64,000 nucleotides of DNA, from the NCBI GenBank assembly GCA_963713955.1, contig OY970216.1, positions 506,252-570,251 of the forward strand, read 5' to 3'. This stretch comes from an uncultured bacterium. GTDB taxonomy: Bacteria; Patescibacteriota; Minisyncoccia; UBA6257; GWB1-50-10. Below are positions 17,286-48,535 of this stretch, one piece after another. Below the pieces are notes generated by a model that was not told where the DNA came from, ran no database searches, and saw only the letters and a list, made by a program, of their open reading frames with translations. Within the stretch, counting starts at the first letter, position 1; each line of letters starts with the position of its first letter. The position numbers and the translations under genes are program-made.

Positions 17286-17606
17286 ATGATTAACGAGGAA
17301 GTTCTAAAAAAAATCAAACCCGGCGCCCGCGTGCGGGTCTGGGAGCGGATCAAAGAAGGTGACAAGGAACGACAGTCGTCCTTCGAGGGATTGGTTATCG
17401 CGAGGAAGCATGGCAAGGAAGTCGGCGGTACTTTTACCGTGAGAGCTGTCCTGCACGAGGTGGGAGTAGAAAAGATATATCCCATAAATTCGCCGGCCAT
17501 CGCCAAGATCGAAGTTCTGTCATCGCCGAAGAAAGTACACCGCTCCAAGCTCTACTACGTACGTAATCTCTCGAGCAAACAATTGAAGGAAAAGCTGAAG
17601 ATATAA
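17286..17606 (+). CDS. rplS: 50S ribosomal protein L19
   Basis: KPGARVRVWERIKEGDKERQSSFEGLVIARKHGKEVGGTFTVRAV...IYPINSPAIAKIEVL, a conserved L19 sequence. Confidence 0.9.
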   Translation: MINEEVLKKIKPGARVRVWERIKEGDKERQSSFEGLVIARKHGKEVGGTFTVRAVLHEVGVEKIYPINSPAIAKIEVLSSPKKVHRSKLYYVRNLSSKQLKEKLKI

Positions 17607-17703: not shown

Positions 17704-18375
17704 ATGGGGAGGGGGATAAAACCGCAGGGGAAAGTTAAAATTAAATGGTCTCCTGCATTTGCCTACGTGATCGGGGTTATTACAACCGATGGCAACCTTT
17801 CTATTGATAAAAGACATATCAATATAACATCAAAGGATGAGGAGATGGTTAAAACGGTTGCGAAGTGCATTGATATCAAAAACAAGATTGGTCGTAAAGC
17901 AAGAGGCGGCGAGAAAGAAAAGAAATATTTCGTACTCCAATTCGGCGATGTTTTATTTTATAACTTTCTCCTCTCGATCGGCCTCACGCCGCATAAATCA
18001 AAGACGCTCCGTTCTATCGCCGTGCCTGATAAATACTTCTTCGATTTCTTGCGCGGGCATTTTGACGGTGACGGAACTTTTTATTCCTACTGGGATCTGC
18101 GCTGGAAATCAAGTTTTATGTTCTATACGGAATTTATTTCGGCCAGCAAGGCTCATATTGAATGGTTGCGGGAGAGAATATGCAACATCCTGAAAATACA
18201 CGGCCACATTACAAGAAGTGGGAATAACTCCGTGTATCAATTGAAATATGCCAAGGGGGAGTCATTGAAATTACTGGCTAAAATGTACTACAATAAGGAC
18301 GTAATTTGTTTAAGGAGGAAGAAAGATAAGGTAGAGAAAGCCCTAAAAACAGATTCAAACGCGCGGGTGTCGTAA
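17704..18375 (+). CDS. LAGLIDADG-family homing endonuclease (two-motif, single-chain type)
   Basis: Motif 1 AYVIGVITTDGNLSI and motif 2 FLRGHFDGDGTFYSY. The 3' end (stop 18373-18375) overlaps the first 15 nt of tRNA-Leu. Confidence 0.8.
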   Translation: MGRGIKPQGKVKIKWSPAFAYVIGVITTDGNLSIDKRHINITSKDEEMVKTVAKCIDIKNKIGRKARGGEKEKKYFVLQFGDVLFYNFLLSIGLTPHKSKTLRSIAVPDKYFFDFLRGHFDGDGTFYSYWDLRWKSSFMFYTEFISASKAHIEWLRERICNILKIHGHITRSGNNSVYQLKYAKGESLKLLAKMYYNKDVICLRRKKDKVEKALKTDSNARVS

Positions 18376-18447
18376 CTGGTAGCCGAGCATCCTTGAGGTG
18401 GATGTGCCCGTAAGGGCGTGGAGGTTCGAGTCCTCTCCCGCGCACCA
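18361..18447 (+). tRNA. tRNA-Leu (anticodon GAG), class II with long variable arm, CCA encoded
   Basis: GCGCGGG/CCCGCGC acceptor, 3-bp D stem TCG/CGA, CATCC-TTGAGGT-GGATG anticodon arm, 15-nt variable stem-loop, GGAGG-TTCGAGT-CCTCT T arm, ACCA. Confidence 0.85.
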
Positions 18448-18470
18448 GAATGCCGTGTTAATATATAAAC

Positions 18471-19013
18471 ATGGCCTATGAAATAGAAACGAAGGTTCTG
18501 GACATTGACGCCGAGAAGGTAAAGGAAAGATTAGTCTCATTAGGCGCTCAGAAAACACAGGAAACGATTTTACGGGTAGACTGGTATCGACCGAGGGGAG
18601 TGAAAGAAGGGGAAGATTCATGGTTTTTGCGTATCCGATCCAACAGCGAGGGGAAACACGAGGTCACATGGAAAGCGAAATCAGATATACTGGGCACTAC
18701 CAGAAAAAACAAAGAGATCAATTTTATGATTTCGGAACCGGAAAAGTTGGTCGATCTTTTTGAGGAACTTGGTCTTGAAAGGTACGCGCATCAAGATAAA
18801 GAGCGAACATCGTTTATCCTGAAGAATTGGCTATCTGAGATAGACCGCTACCCTAAAATGCCGACGTACCTCGAAATTGAAGGAGGGAGTGAAGAGCATG
18901 TGAAGGAAGCAATAACATTACTCGGCTTAGAAAAGGACCGGACGTGGGCTGAGGGTGAGCGGATTCTCATTCAAGACGTCTATGGACTGAACTGGTACGA
19001 TATGAGGTTCTAA
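18471..19013 (+). CDS. CYTH-domain protein (triphosphate tunnel metalloenzyme / CyaB-like)
   Basis: Starts MAYEIETKVLDIDAEKVKERL..., the EXEXK beta-strand motif of CYTH. A paralog lies at 47562..48137. Confidence 0.6.
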   Translation: MAYEIETKVLDIDAEKVKERLVSLGAQKTQETILRVDWYRPRGVKEGEDSWFLRIRSNSEGKHEVTWKAKSDILGTTRKNKEINFMISEPEKLVDLFEELGLERYAHQDKERTSFILKNWLSEIDRYPKMPTYLEIEGGSEEHVKEAITLLGLEKDRTWAEGERILIQDVYGLNWYDMRF

Positions 19014-19071
19014 TTTCCACTACTACAAATCGTTTGAACGTCATCCAGTTCTGTACACCAAAGTTATATAA

Positions 19072-19530
19072 TTGACTTATATGTCCGAAGAAAAAAAGAG
19101 GGTGGGTGCAGGATTTGGCGTGATTCTGGAACGTGACGGGAAAATTCTCCTCGGGATGCGCCATCCTGATCCCGATAAAGCCGACTCGGCATTCCGGAGC
19201 GCCGGGGAGTGGTCATTGCCGGGAGGGAAACTTGAGTGGGGAGAAACTCTGGAGGAGGGCGCGATCCGCGAGGTCAAAGAAGAAACCGGAATCACCATCA
19301 TCAATCCTCAGGTGATATCGGTGCACAATTGCAAAAATGAATATGCTCATTTCATGACGGTAGGACTTCTCACCCACAAGTGGGAAGGTGAAGCGAATGT
19401 TATGGAACCGGATGAGATAATAAAGTGGCAGTGGTTCGATCTTAATGATCTGCCATATCCTCGCTATTTTCCCAGCTTTGAAGTCATTGAAAATTACTTG
19501 AAAGGCAAGTTTTACATAAAACGGCTTTAG
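19072..19530 (+). CDS. NUDIX hydrolase
   Basis: Nudix box GGKLEWGETLEEGAIREVKEETGI. Confidence 0.8.
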   Translation: MTYMSEEKKRVGAGFGVILERDGKILLGMRHPDPDKADSAFRSAGEWSLPGGKLEWGETLEEGAIREVKEETGITIINPQVISVHNCKNEYAHFMTVGLLTHKWEGEANVMEPDEIIKWQWFDLNDLPYPRYFPSFEVIENYLKGKFYIKRL

Positions 19531-19539
19531 GGAAAACAG

Positions 19540-20520
19540 ATGAAAACCGTCACTCTCCACAACAAAAAAGAATTTCTCCTCCGTCCAACCAAGCCCTTCC
19601 ATTTCGATTCTACCTTTTACAAACCAGGCCATTTTACAAGCAGCGACACGAAATGGGAGCCGGGGAGAAGATGGCAGACCATGTTGTGGCAAGGAGAAAG
19701 GCTTGGCTTGATTTACGAGGACGCTGGAACCAAATCAAAGCCCAAGGTCAGAGTCAAAGTGTTTTCCAAAAAGAAATTATCTCGGGAATTTATCGAGGGG
19801 CTTAAAAAAGAAATAATCTGGAGATTCAATCTGGATTTAGATTTAACCGGTTTCTACAAGGATGTTGGCAAAGATCCTATCCTGAAACCTGCCATCAAGA
19901 GATTCTACGGTCTTCGTCCGATGTCCTATTCCTCGCTTTACGAATATCTGATCATTGATATTGTGCTCCAAAATACCGTTGTCCGGCGAAGTATCAGCAT
20001 GCTCCAATCTCTTTTTGAAAACTATGGTGTCCTCCTTGAATATGATCATCAGAAATTCTGGGGCTACTGGGAACCGAAAGCCCTCGCGATGACGAAAGAG
20101 CAAGAACTGCGGGATCTGAAAGTGGGGTACCGGGCCAAGTCCTTTATCAGAGTTTCAAAGTCGTTCGCGAAGGGCGATATCGACGAGCTCGACTTGAGAA
20201 AAAAGAGCCCGGAAGGGCAGGAGAAAATCTTGCTCTCGCTCTACGGCATCGGGCCGGCGTCGGTGGGCTATCTCATGTTCGACTGCCTTCACCACTGGGA
20301 CTACCTGAAAAACATCTCGCCGTGGGAGCAGAAAATCTATACCCACATCTTTTTCAATAAAGACCACGAAAAGCACCTCGTACCGATCGAAAAGATGCTC
20401 AAAAGATTCGAGAGATGGGGCAAGTGGAAGGGGCTCGCCGTGAACTATGTTTGGGAGGAGATATGGTGGAAGCGGAGGAACGAGCACATCCCGTGGCTCG
20501 AGAAAGAAATAAGGCTATAA
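19540..20520 (+). CDS. HhH-GPD superfamily DNA glycosylase (AlkA-like 3-methyladenine glycosylase II)
   Basis: Helix-hairpin-helix LLSLYGIGPASVGYLMF followed by an Asp-containing loop. Size and N-terminal domain fit AlkA. Confidence 0.5.
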   Translation: MKTVTLHNKKEFLLRPTKPFHFDSTFYKPGHFTSSDTKWEPGRRWQTMLWQGERLGLIYEDAGTKSKPKVRVKVFSKKKLSREFIEGLKKEIIWRFNLDLDLTGFYKDVGKDPILKPAIKRFYGLRPMSYSSLYEYLIIDIVLQNTVVRRSISMLQSLFENYGVLLEYDHQKFWGYWEPKALAMTKEQELRDLKVGYRAKSFIRVSKSFAKGDIDELDLRKKSPEGQEKILLSLYGIGPASVGYLMFDCLHHWDYLKNISPWEQKIYTHIFFNKDHEKHLVPIEKMLKRFERWGKWKGLAVNYVWEEIWWKRRNEHIPWLEKEIRL

Positions 20521-20522
20521 CC

Positions 20523-21005
20523 ATGATGATCCCACAGGACGAGTACTATAAAAACATACCGAAGAAAAGAATGGGCGCCGGAGTTCTCATCGCCGACGGG
20601 AACGACAGATTTTTATTCGTAAAACTGGCCTACAAAAATAACTGGTCAATACCGGGTGGAGTAATCGAAACCAACGAATCACCGAGGACAGCCGCGATAA
20701 GAGAAACAAAAGAAGAAGTACATATTGATCTCCAAGAGTGCATTTTCCTATGCCTCGATTACAAATCGGGTACGAGCGAAAACGGGGAGAGTCTGCAATT
20801 TATATTCTCCGGTGGTATTTTGAATGATAAGACGAAGGCCGATATAAAAGTTGACGGGGAGGAGATAGTGGAATGCAAATTTATGAAACTGGAAAAGGCC
20901 CTACCACTCCTTAGCGAAGGATTGAGGAAACGGTTGCCGAAATGCTTCGAGTCACTGAAAAGCCATAAAGTGATTTATCTAGAGGACGGCGAAGCTGTTC
21001 AATAA
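20523..21005 (+). CDS. NUDIX hydrolase
   Basis: Nudix box GGVIETNESPRTAAIRETKEEVHI. The start is taken at the ATG immediately after the upstream stop. Confidence 0.75.
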   Translation: MMIPQDEYYKNIPKKRMGAGVLIADGNDRFLFVKLAYKNNWSIPGGVIETNESPRTAAIRETKEEVHIDLQECIFLCLDYKSGTSENGESLQFIFSGGILNDKTKADIKVDGEEIVECKFMKLEKALPLLSEGLRKRLPKCFESLKSHKVIYLEDGEAVQ

Positions 21006-42438: not shown

Positions 42439-44946
42439 ATGGAAATCCTCACCAAGCTTTTCAAAGACAACAATCTCAAAAGATACGAGCGCACCGCCGA
42501 GAAAATCAATTCGCTTGAACCGGAAATTGAACGCCTGAACGCGGAAGAACTCAAGGAAGAAATGCTGAAGCTGAAAGAAGAGTTGAGAAACGGGAAAAAA
42601 CCGGATGACATCCTGCCGCGCTCTTTCGCCCTTACGAGGGAAGCGGCAAAAAGAACCCTGAAGCAGAGGCATTTCGACGTTCAGATGGTGGGCGGCATGG
42701 CTCTCCACGAGGGAAAAATCGCCGAAATGAGGACCGGCGAAGGCAAAACGCTTGCGGCGACGCTCCCCACGGCCCTCAACGCCGCGACGGGGAGGGGTGC
42801 CCACGTGATAACCGTGAACGATTACCTTGCCAAGAGAGACACGGTCTGGATGGGGCAGATATACTACGCGTTGGGCTTCACGATCGCGTGCTTAGTCCAC
42901 GACGCGGCCTACGTCTACGACCCGTCGTTCGTGGGAGAAGAAAACCTGGACAAGGAACGGGACGCCATCGGCGGCTTCAAGGTCGTCGAAAAGTTTCTCC
43001 GGCCCGTCTCCCGAAAAGAAGCTTACGCTTCGGACATCACCTACGGCACCAACCACGAATTCGGCTTTGACTACCTGCGGGACAATCTGGCCGTCCGACT
43101 CGAAGACAAGGTACAAAGGGATTTTCATTACGCGATCATAGACGAAGTGGACAGCATCTTGATAGACGAGGCGAGAACGCCTCTGATCATCGCCGGCCCC
43201 GACCAAGAGTCGAGCGAATACTACCGGGTTTTCGCCCGCATTGTCTCAAACCTCGAGGAAGAAACCGATTACACCGTCGACGAGAAATTGAGGGCCGTGT
43301 CGATAACCGAACCCGGCATAGAAAAGACGGAAAAACTGGCCAACGTCCAAAACATCTACGCGCCGGAGAATCTGCGTCTTGTCCATTTTCTCCAGGAAAG
43401 CCTCAAAGCCAAAGCGCTCTTCAAGCGGGACAAGGATTACATCGTCAAAAACGGGGAAGTCGTGATCGTCGACGAATTCACCGGCCGGATGCTCATGGGG
43501 AGGAGGTATTCCGGGGGGCTCCACCAAGCCATAGAGGCCAAAGAAGGAGTGAATGTGCGGCAAGAAGACCGAACATACGCCCAGATCACCATCCAGAACT
43601 ATTTCCGCCTTTATGAAAAAATAGCGGGCATGACCGGGACGGCCGAGACTTCCGCCGAAGAATTCAACAAAGTTTACAACCTGGACGTCGTGACGATCCC
43701 CACCAACAAAAAGATGATACGGGAAGATCTGCCTGATGCAATCTATAAAACAAAAAAAGCGAAATATGAAGCGATCGTCAGAGAGATAAAGGAACAAAAA
43801 GAAAAAGGCAGGCCGATTCTCGTCGGAACGACGTCAATAGCCAACAATGAGATCATTTCTTCTTATCTCGCGAAAGCCGGGATACCACACGAGGTCCTGA
43901 ACGCCAAAAACCACGAACGCGAGGGAATGATCATTGCGCAGGCGGGGCGCGCGGGCGCCGTGACCGTCGCGACCAACATGGCCGGCCGCGGCGTCGACAT
44001 CGTCCTCGGAGGCAATCCGCCCGACCCCGATGAAGCGGAAAGAATAAAAGCAGCCGGCGGGCTCCTCGTCGTCGGAACCGAACGGCACGAGGCGAGGAGG
44101 ATTGACAACCAACTTCGCGGGCGCGCCGGGAGGCAGGGAGATCCCGGCTCGACGGAATTTTTCCTCTCCCTCGAAGACGATCTCATGCGCATCTTCGGAG
44201 GCGACCGGATCAAGCACCTCATGGAAACTCTGAACTTCCCGGAAGACGTTCCCATCCAATCCAAAACGGTCATGAGGGCGATCAACCAAGCTCAGGTCAA
44301 AGTCGAGGGAGCAAACTTCGACATCCGGAAGCATCTCCTAGATTTCGACGATGTATTGAACAAACAGAGAGCGGCAATTTACAACAAAAGGACCAAAATA
44401 CTGGAAGCGGGGGACAAGAATGAAATATTGTCAATTGTGAGGGAAATGATCGGTAATTTTGTTTCCGAAAACGTGGCCGCTCTGAAAAACAAATTGGAAT
44501 TGAATCCGGAGGAAAAAGAACAAACCGAAAAACAGATAAGCGAGTTGGAGAACAAAGCGTCAAAAATCCCGGAAAGCATCGACCAACTCAAATCCACGGT
44601 GATAGCCCAGCAAATCGTGAGGATGATGGATGCGCTCTGGATCGATCACTTGGAAAACCTCGAAGGATTGAGGGAGTCGGTGAACATCCGCGCTTACGGA
44701 CAGCACGATCCGCTCATCGAGTACCGTCGGGAAGCCTACCTCCAGTTCCAAGAGTTCAACAAGGCTCTCGAATCATTGGTGTATGGCACGGTATTCCAGA
44801 TTTTCGACATGGACCTCGGCAAAATGTTCGTGCCCCAAAACGCCGCGCCGCGCGAGACTCCGCCGCCGGAATTCAAGAACATCGGCAGGAATGACCCCTG
44901 CTGGTGCGGGAGCGGTTTGAAATACAAAAAATGCCACGGAAAATAA
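42439..44946 (+). CDS. secA: Preprotein translocase ATPase SecA
   Basis: DEAD-like motor motifs (MRTGEGKTLAATLP, DEVDSILIDEARTPLIIAG), C-terminal zinc motif CWCGSGLKYKKCHG. Confidence 0.95.
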   Translation: MEILTKLFKDNNLKRYERTAEKINSLEPEIERLNAEELKEEMLKLKEELRNGKKPDDILPRSFALTREAAKRTLKQRHFDVQMVGGMALHEGKIAEMRTGEGKTLAATLPTALNAATGRGAHVITVNDYLAKRDTVWMGQIYYALGFTIACLVHDAAYVYDPSFVGEENLDKERDAIGGFKVVEKFLRPVSRKEAYASDITYGTNHEFGFDYLRDNLAVRLEDKVQRDFHYAIIDEVDSILIDEARTPLIIAGPDQESSEYYRVFARIVSNLEEETDYTVDEKLRAVSITEPGIEKTEKLANVQNIYAPENLRLVHFLQESLKAKALFKRDKDYIVKNGEVVIVDEFTGRMLMGRRYSGGLHQAIEAKEGVNVRQEDRTYAQITIQNYFRLYEKIAGMTGTAETSAEEFNKVYNLDVVTIPTNKKMIREDLPDAIYKTKKAKYEAIVREIKEQKEKGRPILVGTTSIANNEIISSYLAKAGIPHEVLNAKNHEREGMIIAQAGRAGAVTVATNMAGRGVDIVLGGNPPDPDEAERIKAAGGLLVVGTERHEARRIDNQLRGRAGRQGDPGSTEFFLSLEDDLMRIFGGDRIKHLMETLNFPEDVPIQSKTVMRAINQAQVKVEGANFDIRKHLLDFDDVLNKQRAAIYNKRTKILEAGDKNEILSIVREMIGNFVSENVAALKNKLELNPEEKEQTEKQISELENKASKIPESIDQLKSTVIAQQIVRMMDALWIDHLENLEGLRESVNIRAYGQHDPLIEYRREAYLQFQEFNKALESLVYGTVFQIFDMDLGKMFVPQNAAPRETPPPEFKNIGRNDPCWCGSGLKYKKCHGK

Positions 44947-45584
44947 GCGAACTATACGATAAATACAAAATACCGACGTCACTCCGGACGCACATGATAA
45001 GAGTCGCCGGCGTCGCTTCGATCATCTGCCGGAACTTCAAAGGACCCATCGAAACGGACGAGATCATATCAGCGTGCCTTTTGCACGACATGGGAAACAT
45101 CATCAAATTCAACTTGGACGCCCTTCCAGAACTTCTGGAACCAGAAGGGAAGGGTTACTGGTCCCTCATCCAGAAGGACTTTATAGCCCGGTACGGTAAC
45201 GACGAACACAAGGCGACTCTCGCGATCGCGAAGGAAGCGGAGATCTCCGACCGGGTGTACAATTTGATAAAATCTTTCGGGTTCGGAAAAGCGTGCGAAC
45301 GGGCCGAGGACGACGACTTCCCGAAGAAAATATGCAATTATTCCGACCAACGAGTCGGGCCGTTCGGCGTTTTATCACTCAAAGAAAGGATACGGGAAGG
45401 AAGCAACCGATTCATTGCGTCAGGCAGAAAGCCGCCCGAAGACGAAAGGTCGTTCGAAGAATCGGTATCCTGCTTGGGAAATCTCGAGAAACAGGTTTTT
45501 GACCGATGTTCCCTGAAACCCGAGGATATCACCGACTCATTGGTGGAAACCGAGACAAAAAACATCCAAGCATTCTGGATGTAA
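44931..45584 (+). CDS. HD-domain phosphohydrolase
   Basis: H...HD motif (THMIRVAGVAS...ACLLHDMGNI). Start taken at the in-frame ATG at 44931 (alternative 44904). Confidence 0.6.
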   Translation: MPRKISELYDKYKIPTSLRTHMIRVAGVASIICRNFKGPIETDEIISACLLHDMGNIIKFNLDALPELLEPEGKGYWSLIQKDFIARYGNDEHKATLAIAKEAEISDRVYNLIKSFGFGKACERAEDDDFPKKICNYSDQRVGPFGVLSLKERIREGSNRFIASGRKPPEDERSFEESVSCLGNLEKQVFDRCSLKPEDITDSLVETETKNIQAFWM

Positions 45585-45648
45585 AAACAATGACAAGAAT
45601 TCTGCCCCTGGTGGGGCAACTTGAATAAGCACAAAAAGCGGAGGTAAG

Positions 45649-46110
45649 ATGAAAAACGTGGACACAGACAAAAAATATCCAAGGGTCGGCGCGGGAGCGA
45701 TGATTTTGAAAGACGGGAAGGTGCTCCTCGGAAAAAGACACGACGACCCCGAAAAGGCATCGAGCGCTCTCCACGGGGAAGGTACGTGGACGATGCCCGG
45801 CGGGAAAATCGATTTTCAGGAAAAAATCGACGATGGCATCCTCCGCGAGGTGTTCGAAGAAACCGGTGTCAGGATAAAAAAAGAAGATTTGAAACTCTTA
45901 AGCGTCACGAACGACATCGTCAAAGACGCTCATTTCGTGACGATCGGGTTTCTCTGCGAGAAATTCGAAGGAGAACCCCGCGCGATGGAACCCGATGAAA
46001 TCGTCGAATGGCGATGGTTTCCGATAAACGGCCTTCCCGCGCCGATGTACCCCACGAGCAAAAAAATGATCGAACATTACCTTGCAAAGAAGATTTACAT
46101 AACATCATGA
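45649..46110 (+). CDS. NUDIX hydrolase
   Basis: Nudix box GGKIDFQEKIDDGILREVFEETGV. Confidence 0.8.
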   Translation: MKNVDTDKKYPRVGAGAMILKDGKVLLGKRHDDPEKASSALHGEGTWTMPGGKIDFQEKIDDGILREVFEETGVRIKKEDLKLLSVTNDIVKDAHFVTIGFLCEKFEGEPRAMEPDEIVEWRWFPINGLPAPMYPTSKKMIEHYLAKKIYITS

Positions 46111-46586
46111 GCCCTCCGCGCATGAAAAAACTGCTCACCCTTTGCATAATATACGAACACCCCCGGATACTCCTTGGCATGAAAAAACGGGGGTTCGGCA
46201 AGGGGAGGTGGAATGGCTTCGGCGGGAAGGTGGAAAAGGGAGAAACAATAGAAGAAGCGGCAAAACGAGAACTAACCGAGGAAGTTGGCGTTATGCCCCA
46301 TTCTCTCGAGAAGCGCGGCATCATCGAATTCGAATTCAAGGACAATCCCGAGATTCTAGAGATGCATATTTTCTGCGTAAACGGTTTCGCCGGGACGCCG
46401 AAAGAAAGCGACGAGATGAAACCCCAGTGGTTTGACGTAAGCGAGATTCCCTTCGATTCAATGTGGTCGGATGACAAATATTGGCTGCCATCGTTTCTGA
46501 ACGACAAAAAATTCAAAGGTAAATTTTTCTTCGACGTCTCCGAAAATGTCATCGACAAAGAATTTGACGAAGTCGAGAATTTATGA
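46107..46586 (+). CDS. NUDIX hydrolase, MTH1/NUDT1-like (8-oxo-dGTP diphosphatase-type signature)
   Basis: GFGKGRWNGFGGKVEKGETIEEAAKRELTEEVGV closely matches the NUDT1 signature. ATGA overlap with the upstream gene. Confidence 0.75.
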   Translation: MSPPRMKKLLTLCIIYEHPRILLGMKKRGFGKGRWNGFGGKVEKGETIEEAAKRELTEEVGVMPHSLEKRGIIEFEFKDNPEILEMHIFCVNGFAGTPKESDEMKPQWFDVSEIPFDSMWSDDKYWLPSFLNDKKFKGKFFFDVSENVIDKEFDEVENL

Positions 46587-47044
46587 AACCCAAGAGATTC
46601 AAACCCAAACGAGGACAAGTTGACTATCGCCACATCCACTGGGCGCCAGTCATAAACTGTGTATTGAAATGCGGCGACAAGATTCTCTTGGTCCACCGGA
46701 ACAAGAACATGAACTTGTACCCCGGATACTGGAGCGGCATCTCGGGATTTCTCGACGACGACAAAAGCCTCGAAGAGAAAGTCGCCGAGGAAGTAAAGGA
46801 GGAATTGGGCATCGACAAGAAAAAGATAGTGAAAATAAAACTGGGAGAAATATTCGACCAGGAAGACCCCGCAAACAAAAAGACCTGGATTGTCCATCCC
46901 GTATTTGTGGAAATCAAGCCGGGTGAGATAAAATTGAATTGGGAAGCCGAAGGTTATCGATGGATCAAGCCAAGAGAAGCACAAAAACTGAAACTGATAC
47001 CGAATTTCGACAAAGTTCTCGAAAAACTATCACAATGGCTGTGA
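46583..47044 (+). CDS. NUDIX hydrolase
   Basis: Nudix box SGFLDDDKSLEEKVAEEVKEELGI. Confidence 0.7.
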   Translation: MKPKRFKPKRGQVDYRHIHWAPVINCVLKCGDKILLVHRNKNMNLYPGYWSGISGFLDDDKSLEEKVAEEVKEELGIDKKKIVKIKLGEIFDQEDPANKKTWIVHPVFVEIKPGEIKLNWEAEGYRWIKPREAQKLKLIPNFDKVLEKLSQWL

Positions 47045-47580
47045 AAAAAAGAAAATCAAAGAAAAAGAAGCTGGTCGTCGTCGCCGTGAGCGGTGGCTTC
47101 GACCCGCTCCACATCGGTCATACCCGACTTTTCCGCCACGCGCGAACGTTAGGCGACAAGCTAGTCGTTATTCTCAACAATGACCACTGGCTCCGTAAGA
47201 AGAGAGGATTTGTGTTCATGTCGGAGCATGAAAGAAAGGAAGTCATTGAGGCGCTCCGCGATGTTGATCGTGTTATCCTCACGAAACACCCAAGGAACCC
47301 GAAAGGTCCCGAAGATATGAGCGTTAGTCGCGAACTTCGGAAACTCATGCCGGACATCTTCGTAAACGGCGGAGACCGGAACGAAAAAGACGCAGCAAAC
47401 CCCGCCTCATCGCTTTACCACGACGTCAATACCTGCAGGGCGCTCGGAATCAAAATGATATTCAATGTCGGCCACGGGGGCAAGATACAATCAAGCTCGT
47501 GGCTCCTCGCCGAATACGCGGATAACCTGCACCGCCAATCAAAGGCTGAACGGAGAAAAAAATGGAAGAAAAAGAAGTAA
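47035..47580 (+). CDS. Cytidylyltransferase-like nucleotidyltransferase (HxGH class. CTP:glycerol-3-P cytidylyltransferase / HldE domain II-like)
   Basis: VVAVSGGFDPLHIGHTRLFRHAR (HIGH motif), ...ILTKHP. Lys-rich N- and C-termini. Confidence 0.65.
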   Translation: MAVKKRKSKKKKLVVVAVSGGFDPLHIGHTRLFRHARTLGDKLVVILNNDHWLRKKRGFVFMSEHERKEVIEALRDVDRVILTKHPRNPKGPEDMSVSRELRKLMPDIFVNGGDRNEKDAANPASSLYHDVNTCRALGIKMIFNVGHGGKIQSSSWLLAEYADNLHRQSKAERRKKWKKKK

Positions 47581-48137
47581 AGTTCCTCAACATTGACAAG
47601 GAGGAGTTGGAGAAAAAGCTTGAGGAAATCGGCGCTCGAAAAGCAGGGGATTATTTTTACAAGAGGATAGTTTTCGATTACCCCGATTTCCGCTTGAACA
47701 AAAGCGGTGCATGGATCCGTCTCCGCGACGAGGGGGACAGAATAACGTTGTCGTTCAAGCAGAGACTCGGCATAAAATCGGATAAGGGCGACGACGAGGG
47801 GATGAAAGAGATCGAGGTCGTCGTCGACGACTTCGACAAAACCGCTACGCTTCTTTCCGAGCTTGGATTCATCGAAAAGCACTATGCCGAGAACAAGAGA
47901 ACCCGCTGGGAGAAGGACGGCGTGGAATTCGACATTGACACCTGGCCGGCTCTGGAACCCTACCTTGAAATAGAATCATCGACATGGGAAAAAGTGGAGG
48001 AAGCGATCAGTTGGTTGGGGTTGAATCCCGCGGACAAAAGAATATTCTCCGCGAACCAAATTTACAAAATGAAGGGTATTAACGTGATCGACTATGTCCA
48101 CTTCGGCTTCGATAAACTTGTAAAAAGAGAGAAATGA
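47562..48137 (+). CDS. CYTH-domain protein (paralog of 18471..19013)
   Basis: MEEKEVKFLNIDKEELEKKLEEIGAR... has the same architecture and motifs as the first CYTH protein. Confidence 0.6.
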   Translation: MEEKEVKFLNIDKEELEKKLEEIGARKAGDYFYKRIVFDYPDFRLNKSGAWIRLRDEGDRITLSFKQRLGIKSDKGDDEGMKEIEVVVDDFDKTATLLSELGFIEKHYAENKRTRWEKDGVEFDIDTWPALEPYLEIESSTWEKVEEAISWLGLNPADKRIFSANQIYKMKGINVIDYVHFGFDKLVKREK

Positions 48138-48385
48138 TTGGAGAAGCAAAAAATTTGAAAACCGGGAGATACAAACACTACAAAGGCGACATCGTTGAGG
48201 TCACCGGAATCTCACTTCACAGTGAAACATTGGAAGAATTCGTGACTTACAAACACATCACCGGCAAACGAGCAGGCGAACCGCACTTCTGGGTCCGCCC
48301 GCTCAAAATGTTCCTGGAAAGCGTAAAAATCAACGGAGAAACAATTCCGCGCTTCAAATACCTCGGCAAACTCATCAGCAAATAG
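48134..48385 (+). CDS. DUF1653-family small protein
   Basis: GRYKHYKGDIVEVTGISLHSETLEEFVTYKHITGKRAGEPHFWVRPLKMF matches the DUF1653 (YKHYKG..Y...HSET.E..V.Y) pattern. Confidence 0.55.
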   Translation: MIGEAKNLKTGRYKHYKGDIVEVTGISLHSETLEEFVTYKHITGKRAGEPHFWVRPLKMFLESVKINGETIPRFKYLGKLISK

Positions 48386-48423: not shown

Positions 48424-48535
48424 CATAAATCCCGTTAGAAGCTCACAGGGGGTATTCAACTCCGTGTTCACTATGGAGACTAAGCATTCATCCCCGCGGC
48501 TTGCCGCGGGGTTTTCTGCTTCTAACGGGATAAAA

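What the first reader, a model, noticed from the sequence alone, without database searches (positions are those of the whole stretch)
18471..21005. First CYTH + NUDIX + DNA glycosylase + NUDIX cluster, adjacent to tRNA-Leu
A CYTH (triphosphate tunnel) protein is followed immediately by a NUDIX hydrolase, an AlkA-like HhH-GPD glycosylase and a second NUDIX hydrolase, all co-directional with short or overlapping junctions. A second CYTH protein flanked by three NUDIX genes occurs at 44931-48385, so the CYTH-NUDIX linkage is present twice in this window. This points to a functional coupling (for example, a nucleoside triphosphate being hydrolysed then cleaned up, or sanitisation of damaged nucleotides together with base excision) rather than chance.
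Basis: partly seen in the sequence, partly recalled or inferred. Interest (0 to 1): 0.55.

Follow-up and report, generated by a model that had tools for sequence, protein, structure and literature searches.

The report
Loose nucleotide-hydrolase gene clusters with CYTH
Two same-strand runs of small nucleotide-phosphate hydrolase genes, each holding a CYTH triphosphatase-type protein and NUDIX genes, are really present in this Patescibacteria genome. The CYTH–NUDIX pairing is a loose, recurrent tendency across relatives, not a conserved operon, so the finding is modest.

Summary
Cluster 1 is tRNA-Leu, CYTH1, NudA, an Ogg-type HhH-GPD protein and NudB (18361-21005). Cluster 2 is SecA, HD, NudC, NudD, NudE, a small nucleotidyltransferase, CYTH2 and DUF1653 (42439-48385).

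- **Cluster 1 is not conserved.** The closest relative (82% identical CYTH1) has rpsT | CYTH1 | ruvA. The glycosylase-like gene never lies within 8 kb of either CYTH in 127 other loci.
- **NUDIX genes are still enriched near both CYTH families.** Within 1 kb versus beyond 2 kb, the rate ratio is 3.9 (p=3e-4) for CYTH1 and 9.8 (p=6e-7) for CYTH2. Only about 22% of genomes show it, and the NUDIX subfamilies differ.
- **CYTH1's stronger partners are other families.** HIT is adjacent in 12 of 60 species; NDK and HD also recur. Half of the species have some nucleotide-hydrolase gene within 300 bp.
- **Both CYTH proteins look like hydrolases, not adenylate cyclases.** They have no HF motif and keep ExE and both arginines.
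- **NudD is an MTH1 (NUDT1) homologue.**
- **The Ogg-like protein lacks the canonical catalytic Lys and Asp.**

My reading is a shuffling guild of nucleotide-pool enzymes in a lineage assumed to rely on nucleotide salvage. It is ordinary biology with a useful guilt-by-association hint.

The parts
18265..18294 (+). Best sigma-70-like promoter match (10 of 12), upstream of tRNA-Leu and cluster 1
   Evidence: This is a consensus match only; the region has no more such sites than shuffled sequence.
18361..18447 (+). tRNA-Leu (anticodon gag), 23 bp upstream of CYTH1
   Evidence: A tRNA-Leu(gag) next to CYTH1 is seen in only 1 of 60 other species (L030, opposite strand).
18471..19013 (+). CYTH1: 180-aa single-domain CYTH / triphosphate tunnel metalloenzyme. 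Motifs E4xE6xK8, F52-x-R54-x-R56, K68, E135xE137.
   Evidence: Pfam CYTH 6e-9. The family is all about 180 aa and 69-82% identical among the 120 hits listed (610 hits in all). The AlphaFold model (pLDDT 86.7) matches SaTTM with TM 0.74-0.76.
19081..19530 (+). NudA: NUDIX hydrolase with a canonical Nudix box; paralogue of NudC (47% identity)
   Evidence: It is 87% identical to a Staskawiczbacteria protein in L045.
19540..20520 (+). Ogg1-type HhH-GPD protein, with the canonical catalytic Lys replaced by Ala and the Asp replaced by Ser
   Evidence: TIGR00588 9e-16. Closest solved structure 4ejy at 2.5e-16, or 3.7e-19 with the family profile. S260 is invariant in all 15 family members; the Lys position is Ala in 12 and Gln in 2.
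20526..21005 (+). NudB: NUDIX hydrolase; its Nudix box ends EEVH instead of EExG
   Evidence: An orthologue sits next to CYTH2 in L091.
44931..45584 (+). HD-domain phosphohydrolase; overlaps the end of secA by 16 bp
   Evidence: Pfam HD 3.7e-5. Orthologues lie directly upstream of CYTH1 in L028 and L045, and one gene further upstream in L058.
45649..46110 (+). NudC: NUDIX hydrolase with a canonical box
   Evidence: The order NudC-NudD-CYTH2 is kept in the closest relative, L072.
46122..46586 (+). NudD: homologue of MTH1/NUDT1, the oxidised purine nucleoside triphosphatase
   Evidence: E=3e-54 and 54% identity over 151 aa to dog MTH1; the GRWNGFGG and MW.DD substrate motifs are kept. Orthologues lie within 2.3 kb of CYTH2 in 8 of 67 loci.
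46583..47044 (+). NudE: NUDIX-fold protein with a degenerate box (E to K and R to E)
   Evidence: Pfam NUDIX 2.5e-13; box read from the sequence. An orthologue lies 0.5 kb from CYTH2 in L103.
47035..47580 (+). Small cytidylyltransferase-like nucleotidyltransferase (HxGH-type motif GGFDPLHIGH)
   Evidence: Pfam CTP_transf_like 8e-13; TIGR00125 49 bits, above its cut-off.
47562..48137 (+). CYTH2: 191-aa single-domain CYTH protein, 31% identical to CYTH1. Motifs E3xE5xK7, W51-x-R53-x-R55, K66, E136xE138.
   Evidence: Pfam CYTH 1.8e-14. W51 aligns with A54 of SaTTM.
48134..48385 (+). DUF1653 protein, the last gene of cluster 2
   Evidence: Pfam DUF1653 2e-21. Homologues lie near CYTH2 in L075 and L136.
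48492..48511 (+). Terminator-like hairpin (8 G-C pairs followed by a T run) that closes cluster 2

Best explanation
The two clusters are fragments of a loosely organised, frequently reshuffled neighbourhood of small enzymes that act on the nucleotide pool. They are not a fixed CYTH-NUDIX system.

Shown here:
- CYTH1 and CYTH2 are two old, strongly conserved paralogous Patescibacteria families with the triphosphate-tunnel fold and the residues of the two-metal hydrolase mechanism.
- Genes around them in other genomes are enriched for NUDIX, HIT, NDK, HD, histidine phosphatase and deoxyribosyltransferase-like proteins.
- Orthologues of the window's own NUDIX and HD genes turn up next to either CYTH gene in other genomes.

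Inferred:
- In an organism assumed (not checked here) to depend on nucleotide salvage, the NUDIX enzymes turn damaged or surplus (d)NTPs into (d)NMP plus pyrophosphate. NudD would do this for 8-oxo-dGTP and 2-OH-dATP.
- The HD enzyme may remove the remaining phosphate.
- The CYTH enzymes hydrolyse the terminal phosphate of a triphosphate substrate. This would be tripolyphosphate, or an organic triphosphate that stacks on the conserved aromatic residue F52 (CYTH1) or W51 (CYTH2).
- Short or overlapping junctions and a single strong terminator suggest that each cluster is one transcript.

I read the co-location as co-regulation of enzymes that work on the same metabolite pool, not as an obligatory CYTH-then-NUDIX pathway.
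For: - Domain calls.
- Family conservation: the 120 CYTH1 hits listed (of 610) are 69-82% identical and the 120 CYTH2 hits listed (of 743) are 61-82% identical, almost all of constant length.
- Fold: the CYTH1 model (pLDDT 86.7) best matches SaTTM, which is a triphosphatase (PMC8233210).
- Hydrolase signature by the criteria of PMC8233210: no HF motif before ExExK, both arginines of xRxR kept, ExE rather than ExA.
- Neighbourhood census over 60 species loci for CYTH1 and 67 dereplicated loci for CYTH2. NUDIX density falls from 0.16-0.20 per kb next to the CYTH gene to about 0.03 per kb or less beyond 2 kb.
- Rate ratios are 3.9 (p=3e-4) and 9.8 (p=6e-7). HIT is 12 near versus 0 far, NDK 9 versus 0, HD 8 versus 1. 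In 30 of 60 species a guild gene lies within 300 bp of CYTH1.
- Pfam counts for the immediate neighbours agree.
- Shuffling: NudD orthologues lie near CYTH2 in 8 of 67 loci, on either side. NudA, NudB, NudC and NudE orthologues each sit next to CYTH2 in some other genome. HD orthologues sit next to CYTH1.
- L045 carries a 9-kb same-strand array with 2 CYTH, 4 NUDIX, 2 HD, a histidine phosphatase and one or two deoxyribosyltransferase-like genes.
- NudD is MTH1-like.
- Operon-like layout.
- Why salvage would raise the need for pool sanitation: PMC12887539.
Against: - No biochemical data exist for any of these proteins.
- Only about a quarter of genomes have a NUDIX within 1-2 kb of either CYTH gene, and half of the CYTH1 loci have no guild neighbour at all.
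- The loci are not phylogenetically independent, so the p-values are optimistic.
- The 'far' background comes from the same 8-kb flanks, not from whole genomes.
- HIT, HD and NDK were not found near CYTH2 with my local models.
- Salvage dependence was not checked in this genome.
- The substrate of the CYTH proteins is inferred from motifs alone.
Confidence: 0.55

Rival explanations
1. Chance juxtaposition. These small genomes carry many NUDIX genes and reshuffle gene order quickly, so the two clusters would have no functional meaning.
For: - Cluster 1 is found in no other genome.
- By gene rank, immediate adjacency alone is not significant (p=0.18 and 0.31).
- NUDIX genes make up 2-4% of the genes in these flanks.
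Against: - Density falls clearly with distance, and the rate ratios of 3.9 and 9.8 are significant.
- HIT, NDK and HD occur almost only next to CYTH1.
- The same orthologues recur near CYTH genes in different arrangements.
- L045 has a multi-gene island.
Confidence: 0.2
2. A dedicated two-step pathway. The CYTH enzyme removes the gamma-phosphate from a 5'-triphosphate (of an NTP or of RNA), and a NUDIX enzyme then processes the diphosphate product. The model is the unidentified RNA triphosphatase that acts before RppH in E. coli.
For: - The CYTH superfamily includes Cet1-type RNA triphosphatases (PMC8233210, PMC8615392).
- The E. coli RNA 5'-triphosphatase is still unidentified (PMC8565310).
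- NUDIX genes are enriched near both CYTH families.
- HIT and DcpS-like neighbours also act on 5'-cap-like dinucleotides.
Against: - No fixed CYTH-NUDIX pair exists; partners differ in subfamily and in side.
- No NUDIX here reaches an RppH model cut-off: the best is 46 bits against 116.
- The closest solved relatives are PPPi/NTP triphosphatases.
Confidence: 0.08
3. An oxidative-damage ('GO-type') module: NUDIX sanitation of 8-oxo-dGTP coupled to base excision by the Ogg-like glycosylase in cluster 1.
For: - The middle gene is an Ogg1-family relative.
- The genome does encode an MTH1-type enzyme.
Against: - The MTH1-like gene is in cluster 2, 25 kb from the Ogg-like gene.
- The Ogg-like family has Ala or Gln in place of the Schiff-base Lys and an invariant Ser in place of the catalytic Asp.
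- Three relatives of the Ogg-like gene (72-79% identity) have no NUDIX or CYTH neighbours.
- The Ogg-like gene is absent from all 127 CYTH loci.
Confidence: 0.08
4. cAMP signalling: the CYTH proteins are class IV adenylate cyclases, as many databases label them, and the NUDIX or HD enzymes degrade nucleotides downstream.
For: - Source annotations read 'adenylate cyclase class 2' or 'class IV adenylate cyclase'.
- TIGR00318 cyaB is the only NCBIfam hit.
Against: - TIGR00318 scores of 46.6 and 51.8 are below the cut-off of 57.95.
- There is no HFxxxxExExK: only 3 and 2 residues precede ExExK.
- Both proteins have ExE, not ExA, and the first Arg of xRxR is kept. All three features argue against a cyclase by the criteria of PMC8233210.
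Confidence: 0.03
5. An anti-phage defence island or a mobile island inserted at the tRNA-Leu gene.
For: - A tRNA gene and a LAGLIDADG-type ORF lie just upstream of cluster 1.
- The NUDIX proteins hit a candidate PADLOC NUDIX model.
Against: - The PADLOC hits are generic NUDIX similarity to one singleton candidate model, and the CYTH, HD, Ogg-like and nucleotidyltransferase proteins have none.
- GC content matches the surroundings.
- No direct repeat derived from the tRNA was found.
- No integrase turned up among the genes flanking cluster 1 that were annotated.
Confidence: 0.02

Closest known systems
SaTTM (Saci_0718) and related archaeal single-domain triphosphate tunnel metalloenzymes (PH1012, Pfu-838710)
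   Same: - Closest solved relatives by sequence and by fold (TM 0.74-0.76).
- Same size and a single domain.
- ExExK, xRxR and ExE are all present.
   Different: - Only 19-25% identity.
- The Patescibacteria families carry an aromatic residue (F52 or W51) where SaTTM has A54.
- CYTH1 has a conserved C-terminal tail, ...GERILIQ..YGLDWY.M.F.
- No activity has been measured.
Mammalian thiamine triphosphatase (THTPA)
   Same: CYTH2 has the W-x-R-x-R motif that PMC8233210 gives as the ThTPase signature, together with ExExK and ExE.
   Different: - Distant in sequence and fold rank (rank 12 or lower).
- CYTH1 has Phe rather than Trp or Tyr.
- The neighbours studied here point to nucleotide rather than thiamine metabolism; no thiamine genes were recognised among them.
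Class IV adenylate cyclase (CyaB of Aeromonas and Yersinia)
   Same: Same superfamily and fold, and this is the label used in databases.
   Different: It lacks the HF motif, has ExE rather than ExA, keeps the gate-keeper Arg, and scores below the TIGR00318 cut-off.
Human and dog MTH1 (NUDT1)
   Same: NudD aligns end to end at 54% identity (E=3e-54), with the equivalents of Asn33 and Trp117-Asp119-Asp120 kept.
   Different: It is bacterial and sits in an operon-like cluster. Its activity is untested.
Bacterial Ogg1-type glycosylases (MBOgg1, PDB 4ejy; CacOgg) and human OGG1
   Same: Best PDB matches: 3.7e-19 for 4ejy and about 3e-10 for hOGG1. The N-terminal domain plus HhH core and the GIG hairpin are present.
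   Different: The catalytic Lys aligns with Ala (Gln in two members) and the catalytic Asp with Ser; the Ser is invariant across the family.
The proposal that CYTH proteins work at the interface of nucleotide and phosphoryl-compound metabolism (Iyer and Aravind 2002, as cited in PMC8233210 and PMC8615392)
   Same: The neighbourhood data here fit that general idea.
   Different: Here the association is measured for two specific Patescibacteria families, and the partner families are named (HIT, NDK, HD, NUDIX). I could not read the 2002 paper.

Membership tests
CYTH / triphosphate tunnel metalloenzyme superfamily | Pfam PF01928 above its gathering score | tested here: met
   CYTH1 36.4 bits and CYTH2 54.4 bits against a cut-off of 23.2
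CYTH / triphosphate tunnel metalloenzyme superfamily | N-terminal ExExK motif | tested here: met
   E4-I-E6-T-K8 in CYTH1 and E3-K-E5-V-K7 in CYTH2. Both glutamates are invariant in both families; the lysine is invariant in CYTH2 and nearly invariant in CYTH1.
CYTH / triphosphate tunnel metalloenzyme superfamily | Eight-stranded beta-barrel tunnel fold | tested here: met
   The CYTH1 AlphaFold model (pLDDT 86.7) has all its top PDB matches among TTM structures. This is a prediction, not a solved structure. CYTH2 was not modelled.
Class IV adenylate cyclase (CyaB) | HF motif four residues before ExExK (HFxxxxExExK) | tested here: not met
   Only MAY (CYTH1) and ME (CYTH2) precede ExExK. Criterion from PMC8233210.
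Class IV adenylate cyclase (CyaB) | ExA instead of ExE on strand beta-8, and a small residue in place of the first Arg of xRxR | tested here: not met
   E135-I-E137 with R54/R56 in CYTH1, and E136-I-E138 with R53/R55 in CYTH2
Class IV adenylate cyclase (CyaB) | NCBIfam TIGR00318 equivalog cut-off (57.95 bits) | tested here: not met
   46.6 and 51.8 bits
Thiamine triphosphatase type | W/Y-x-R-x-R motif (aromatic residue that stacks the organic part of the substrate) | tested here: inconclusive
   CYTH2 has W51-I-R-L-R (met). CYTH1 has F52-L-R-I-R (aromatic, but not Trp or Tyr). The alignment to A54 of SaTTM was checked. Substrate specificity cannot be read from this alone.
NUDIX hydrolases | Pfam PF00293 above its cut-off, and the Nudix box GX5EX7REUXEEXGU | tested here: met
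   All five pass Pfam. The box is strict in NudA, NudC and NudD. NudB has H in place of the last G. NudE has K in place of the first E and E in place of R (read).
MTH1 / NUDT1 | Full-length similarity to MTH1, with Asn33 and Trp117/Asp119/Asp120 conserved | tested here: met
   NudD: E=3e-54, 54% identity; GRWNGFGG and MWSDD align with GRWNGFGG and MWPDD. The residue roles are from my own knowledge of MTH1 structures.
Ogg1-type 8-oxoguanine glycosylase/lyase | Catalytic Lys in the HhH motif (GxGxK) and catalytic Asp about 20 residues downstream | tested here: not met
   GIGPASVGY has Ala (Gln in two family members) at the Lys position, and NISPWEQK has Ser at the Asp position. This holds in the single-sequence and the profile alignments to 4ejy and CacOgg. 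The Ser is invariant in all 15 family members.
Ogg1-type 8-oxoguanine glycosylase/lyase | TIGR00588 cut-off (397.85 bits) and Pfam HhH-GPD cut-off (26.2 bits) | tested here: not met
   57.8 bits and 21.0 bits. Many close family members do carry a precomputed PF00730 hit.
Conserved operon (CYTH-NUDIX as a functional unit) | Adjacency kept across related genomes | tested here: not met
   7 of 60 CYTH1 loci and 6 of 67 CYTH2 loci have a NUDIX within 300 bp. The closest CYTH1 relative has none. Partial exception: NudC-NudD-CYTH2 is kept in L072.
Anti-phage defence system (PADLOC) | Hits to system-specific models for several components | tested here: not met
   Only generic NUDIX hits to the candidate model PDC-S07

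The most novel reading that the evidence does not exclude
CYTH1 or CYTH2 could be the missing bacterial-type 5'-triphosphate (gamma-phosphate) hydrolase for RNA or for an organic triphosphate. It would work ahead of a NUDIX or HIT enzyme that removes the next phosphate or nucleotidyl group. The recurrent but shuffled CYTH-NUDIX/HIT neighbourhoods would then mark a two-step 5'-end or nucleotide deprotection route. A related variant is that CYTH2, with its W-x-R-x-R motif, is a bacterial thiamine triphosphatase.
Probability: 0.06. Interest if true: 0.7.

Novelty: new member of a known kind. Interest (0 to 1): 0.3.

Why it matters
- Both CYTH families are strongly conserved in Patescibacteria, yet they have no known function and are widely mislabelled as adenylate cyclases.
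- The neighbourhood data place them with enzymes that clean or recycle the nucleotide pool. The motifs indicate a hydrolase with an aromatic stacking residue.
- Together these points narrow the set of substrates worth testing to PPPi, (d)NTPs, ThTP and pppRNA.
- The finding also warns against reading a striking local gene cluster as a conserved system, because this one is specific to its lineage.

Tried and rejected
- **Gene-rank census with a greedy 'longest ORF' caller.** It lost real NUDIX genes to long antisense ORFs. In the window, the spurious 354-aa ORF at 45920-46984 swallowed NudC, NudD and NudE. I replaced it with a distance-based census over all six-frame ORFs.
- **AlphaFold model of the Ogg-like protein from 15 close homologues.** Mean pLDDT was 60.6 and the HhH core was below 50. 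It is too poor for a fold search or for placing catalytic residues, so I did not use it.
- **First CYTH1 structure job.** I repeated it without them.
- **Island at the tRNA.** I found no compositional shift and no repeat derived from the tRNA.
- **Defence system.** PADLOC gave only generic NUDIX hits.
- **Iyer and Aravind 2002.** The paper is not held in the library, so its neighbourhood observations are cited second-hand.
- **Literature searches.** Searches for a described CYTH-NUDIX gene neighbourhood, or for Patescibacteria NUDIX clusters, found nothing specific.


Full report
**1. What is in the sequence**

The window has 48.5% G+C. Its proteins match metagenome-assembled Patescibacteria (Paceibacteria/Minisyncoccia type), and identical proteins lie on an 805-kb NCBI contig.

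Cluster 1 is on the + strand:
- tRNA-Leu(gag), 18361-18447.
- CYTH1, 18471-19013.
- NudA, 19081-19530.
- An Ogg-type HhH-GPD protein, 19540-20520.
- NudB, 20526-21005.

The gaps are 23, 67, 9 and 5 bp. The cluster ends head-on against a znuBCA-type ABC transporter on the other strand. The best promoter-like site (10 of 12) lies upstream of the tRNA, and no + strand terminator-like site lies within the cluster.

Cluster 2 is also on the + strand:
- secA, 42439-44946.
- HD, 44931-45584.
- NudC, 45649-46110.
- NudD, 46122-46586.
- NudE, 46583-47044.
- A small cytidylyltransferase-like nucleotidyltransferase, 47035-47580.
- CYTH2, 47562-48137.
- DUF1653, 48134-48385.

Five of the seven junctions overlap. 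A strong terminator-like hairpin follows at 48492-48511.
- The three NUDIX genes are all upstream of CYTH2.
- A nucleotidyltransferase gene separates them from CYTH2.
- An HD gene also belongs to the run.

**2. Is the CYTH-NUDIX linkage conserved?**

CYTH1 and CYTH2 are only 31% identical to each other. Each belongs to a large family of nearly constant length. The 120 best hits of each search are 69-82% identical (CYTH1) and 61-82% identical (CYTH2).

I fetched 67 CYTH1 loci from species-representative genomes. I also fetched 80 CYTH2 loci from metagenomes, which reduce to 67 after dereplication at 95%.

The four-gene cluster 1 occurs in none of them:
- The closest relative (CYTH1 82% identical) has rpsT | CYTH1 | ruvA.
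- The Ogg-like gene never appears within 8 kb of either CYTH gene.
- Three relatives of the Ogg-like gene (72-79% identical) have no NUDIX or CYTH neighbour.
- tRNA-Leu(gag) next to CYTH1 recurs in only 1 of 60 species.

A first census by gene rank was unreliable, because long antisense ORFs displaced real genes. I therefore scored all six-frame ORFs with local HMMs and measured distance in bases.

| Measure | CYTH1 (60 loci) | CYTH2 (67 loci) |
|---|---|---|
| NUDIX per kb, within 300 bp | 0.197 | 0.16 |
| NUDIX per kb, 0.3-1 kb | 0.087 | 0.167 |
| NUDIX per kb, 1-2 kb | 0.046 | 0.067 |
| NUDIX per kb, beyond 2 kb | about 0.03 | 0.03 falling to 0 |
| Rate ratio, within 1 kb vs beyond 2 kb | 3.9 (p=3e-4) | 9.8 (p=6e-7) |
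| Loci with a NUDIX within 300 bp | 7 | 6 |
| Loci with a NUDIX within 1 kb | 13 | 15 |

The adjacent NUDIX genes lie on either side and belong to different subfamilies. The linkage is therefore real as a tendency but is not a conserved operon.

**3. The wider pattern**

Pfam scans of the immediate neighbours of CYTH1 gave these counts:
- Upstream (55 neighbours): HIT 10, HD-type about 7, NDK 4, NUDIX 2.
- Downstream (53 neighbours): NUDIX 5.

With local models, comparing hits within 1 kb against hits beyond 2 kb:
- HIT: 12 near, 0 far (p=1e-9).
- NDK: 9 near, 0 far.
- HD: 8 near, 1 far.
- In 30 of 60 species, a NUDIX, HIT, NDK, HD, histidine phosphatase or deoxyribosyltransferase-like gene lies within 300 bp of CYTH1.

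Around CYTH2, NUDIX is the most frequent family. There are scattered NTPase_I-T, dCMP deaminase, cytidylyltransferase and SecDF genes, and secA often lies upstream.

Orthologues of the window's own genes move between the two neighbourhoods in other genomes:
- NudD lies near CYTH2 in 8 of 67 loci.
- NudA (L088), NudB (L091), NudC (L072) and NudE (L103) each lie next to or near CYTH2 somewhere.
- The HD gene of cluster 2 lies directly upstream of CYTH1 in L028 and L045, and one gene further upstream in L058.
- A second CYTH gene lies in the same 8-kb flank in 7 of 60 and 5 of 67 loci.

One Staskawiczbacteria contig (L045) has a 9-kb same-strand array. Its order is HD, CYTH1, deoxyribosyltransferase-like, an unassigned gene, NUDIX, a methyltransferase, a membrane protein, YfbR-like HD, an unassigned gene, NUDIX, NudA, NUDIX, histidine phosphatase, a B3_4-domain protein and CYTH2. 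The window's two clusters look like two pieces of such a shuffling island.

**4. What the parts are**

*CYTH proteins.* Vogt et al. (PMC8233210) give sequence rules for this superfamily:
- Class IV cyclases have HFxxxxExExK, ExA on strand beta-8, and a small residue in place of the first Arg of xRxR.
- Hydrolases have ExE and keep both arginines.
- Thiamine triphosphatases have W/YxRxR.

CYTH1 (MAYEIETK; WFLRIR; EIE) and CYTH2 (MEEKEVK; WIRLR; EIE) fit the hydrolase rules and fail all the cyclase rules. They are also below the TIGR00318 cut-off.

F52 of CYTH1 and W51 of CYTH2 align with A54 of SaTTM. That is the position of the stacking Trp in ThTPase. This hints at an organic triphosphate substrate, but it is not proof.

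The CYTH1 model (pLDDT 86.7) is closest to SaTTM and to Pyrococcus TTM structures.

*NUDIX proteins.*
- NudD is an MTH1/NUDT1 homologue: E=3e-54, 54% identity, substrate-pocket motifs kept.
- NudA and NudC are 47% identical paralogues without a close characterised relative.
- NudB is generic.
- NudE has an altered Nudix box.

*Ogg-like protein.* Its best matches are bacterial and human Ogg1 enzymes. However, the Schiff-base Lys aligns with Ala (Gln in two family members) and the catalytic Asp aligns with Ser. The Ser is invariant in a family that is 67-79% identical to the window protein across the 14 aligned relatives. Those relatives include contigs labelled Microgenomates, Levyibacteriota and Woesebacteria and one labelled Aenigmatarchaeota. 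Its activity is therefore uncertain.

**5. Mechanism**

I commit to the following reading, with confidence 0.55. Each cluster is probably one transcript encoding enzymes that act on the nucleotide pool of a cell assumed to rely on salvage.
- The NUDIX enzymes convert damaged or surplus (d)NTPs to (d)NMPs. NudD would do this for oxidised purine nucleotides.
- The HD enzyme may dephosphorylate further.
- The CYTH enzymes remove the terminal phosphate from tripolyphosphate or from an organic triphosphate, by the two-metal TTM mechanism.

What is shown:
- The domain and motif content.
- The fold prediction.
- The neighbourhood enrichment.
- The shuffling of orthologues.

What is inferred:
- The substrates.
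- Co-transcription.
- The physiological rationale: salvage lets modified nucleosides enter the dNTP pool (PMC12887539).
- Salvage dependence itself, which was not checked in this genome.

Rivals, with my confidence in each:
- Pure chance: 0.2.
- A fixed two-step CYTH-then-NUDIX route, for example on RNA 5' ends, where the E. coli triphosphatase is still unknown (PMC8565310): 0.08.
- A GO-type repair module: 0.08.
- cAMP signalling: 0.03.
- A defence or mobile island: 0.02.

**6. Novelty and verdict**

All parts belong to known families. A general link between CYTH proteins and nucleotide or phosphoryl-compound metabolism was proposed long ago (cited in PMC8233210 and PMC8615392).

What is new is modest:
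- The link is measured for two uncharacterised Patescibacteria CYTH families, and the partner families are named.
- There is motif evidence against the database label 'adenylate cyclase'.

The specific four-gene cluster is specific to its lineage. Interest is 0.3.

Caveats:
- The loci are not phylogenetically independent.
- The background comes from local flanks.
- The local HMMs for HD, HIT and NDK may miss divergent members.
- Nothing has been tested biochemically.

Noticed in passing
window 46122-46586 (+): NudD is far closer to animal MTH1/NUDT1 (E=3e-54, 54% identity over the full length) than to any solved bacterial MutT (next best 1.5e-10). Orthologues are common in Patescibacteria loci. 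This suggests an MTH1-type enzyme family shared with eukaryotes, or an old gene transfer.
   Followed up: partly
window 19540-20520 (+): The Ogg1-like HhH-GPD family has Ala (Gln in two members) at the Schiff-base Lys position and an invariant Ser at the catalytic Asp position (GIGPASVGY ... HHWDYLKNISPWEQKIY). It is nevertheless 67-79% identical to the window protein across the 14 aligned relatives, which span contigs labelled as several Patescibacteria groups and one labelled Aenigmatarchaeota. It may use another acid (D254 or E263) or may not be a glycosylase.
   Followed up: partly
window 19081-19530 vs L045:14103-14549: NudA is 87% identical to its counterpart in a Staskawiczbacteria genome, where CYTH1 is only 61% identical. 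The cause is either very strong constraint or recent horizontal transfer of this NUDIX gene.
   Followed up: no
L045:7357-16540 (Staskawiczbacteria contig JAHFKV010000001): A 9-kb same-strand array with 2 CYTH, 4 NUDIX, 2 HD, a histidine phosphatase and one or two deoxyribosyltransferase-like genes. It is the clearest example of the nucleotide-hydrolase island.
   Followed up: partly
L005, L014, L020, L026, L029, L032, L035, L044, L058 and others (gene directly upstream of CYTH1): A HIT-family gene is immediately adjacent to CYTH1 in 12 of 60 species, mostly directly upstream, and occurs nowhere else in the 8-kb flanks. This is the strongest single linkage of CYTH1, stronger than NUDIX. It is absent from the window.
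   Followed up: partly
window 17704-18375 (+): A free-standing ORF of the LAGLIDADG homing-endonuclease type lies between rplS (17286-17606) and tRNA-Leu. Another LAGLIDADG gene lies near an Ogg-like gene in L154.
   Followed up: no
window 45920-46984 (-): A 354-aa antisense ORF runs opposite NudC, NudD and NudE. It is almost certainly spurious, but it is longer than the real genes and misleads 'longest ORF' gene calling.
   Followed up: yes
window 46583-47044 (+): NudE's Nudix box reads G-FLDDD-K-SLEEKVA-EE-VK-EE-LGI. The first Glu is replaced by Lys and the Arg by Glu, which looks like a charge swap. The protein is conserved (202-bit orthologue in L103).
   Followed up: no
window 18471-19013 and 47562-48137: Many public records name both CYTH families 'adenylate cyclase class 2' or 'class IV'. 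By published motif criteria this annotation is probably wrong.
   Followed up: yes
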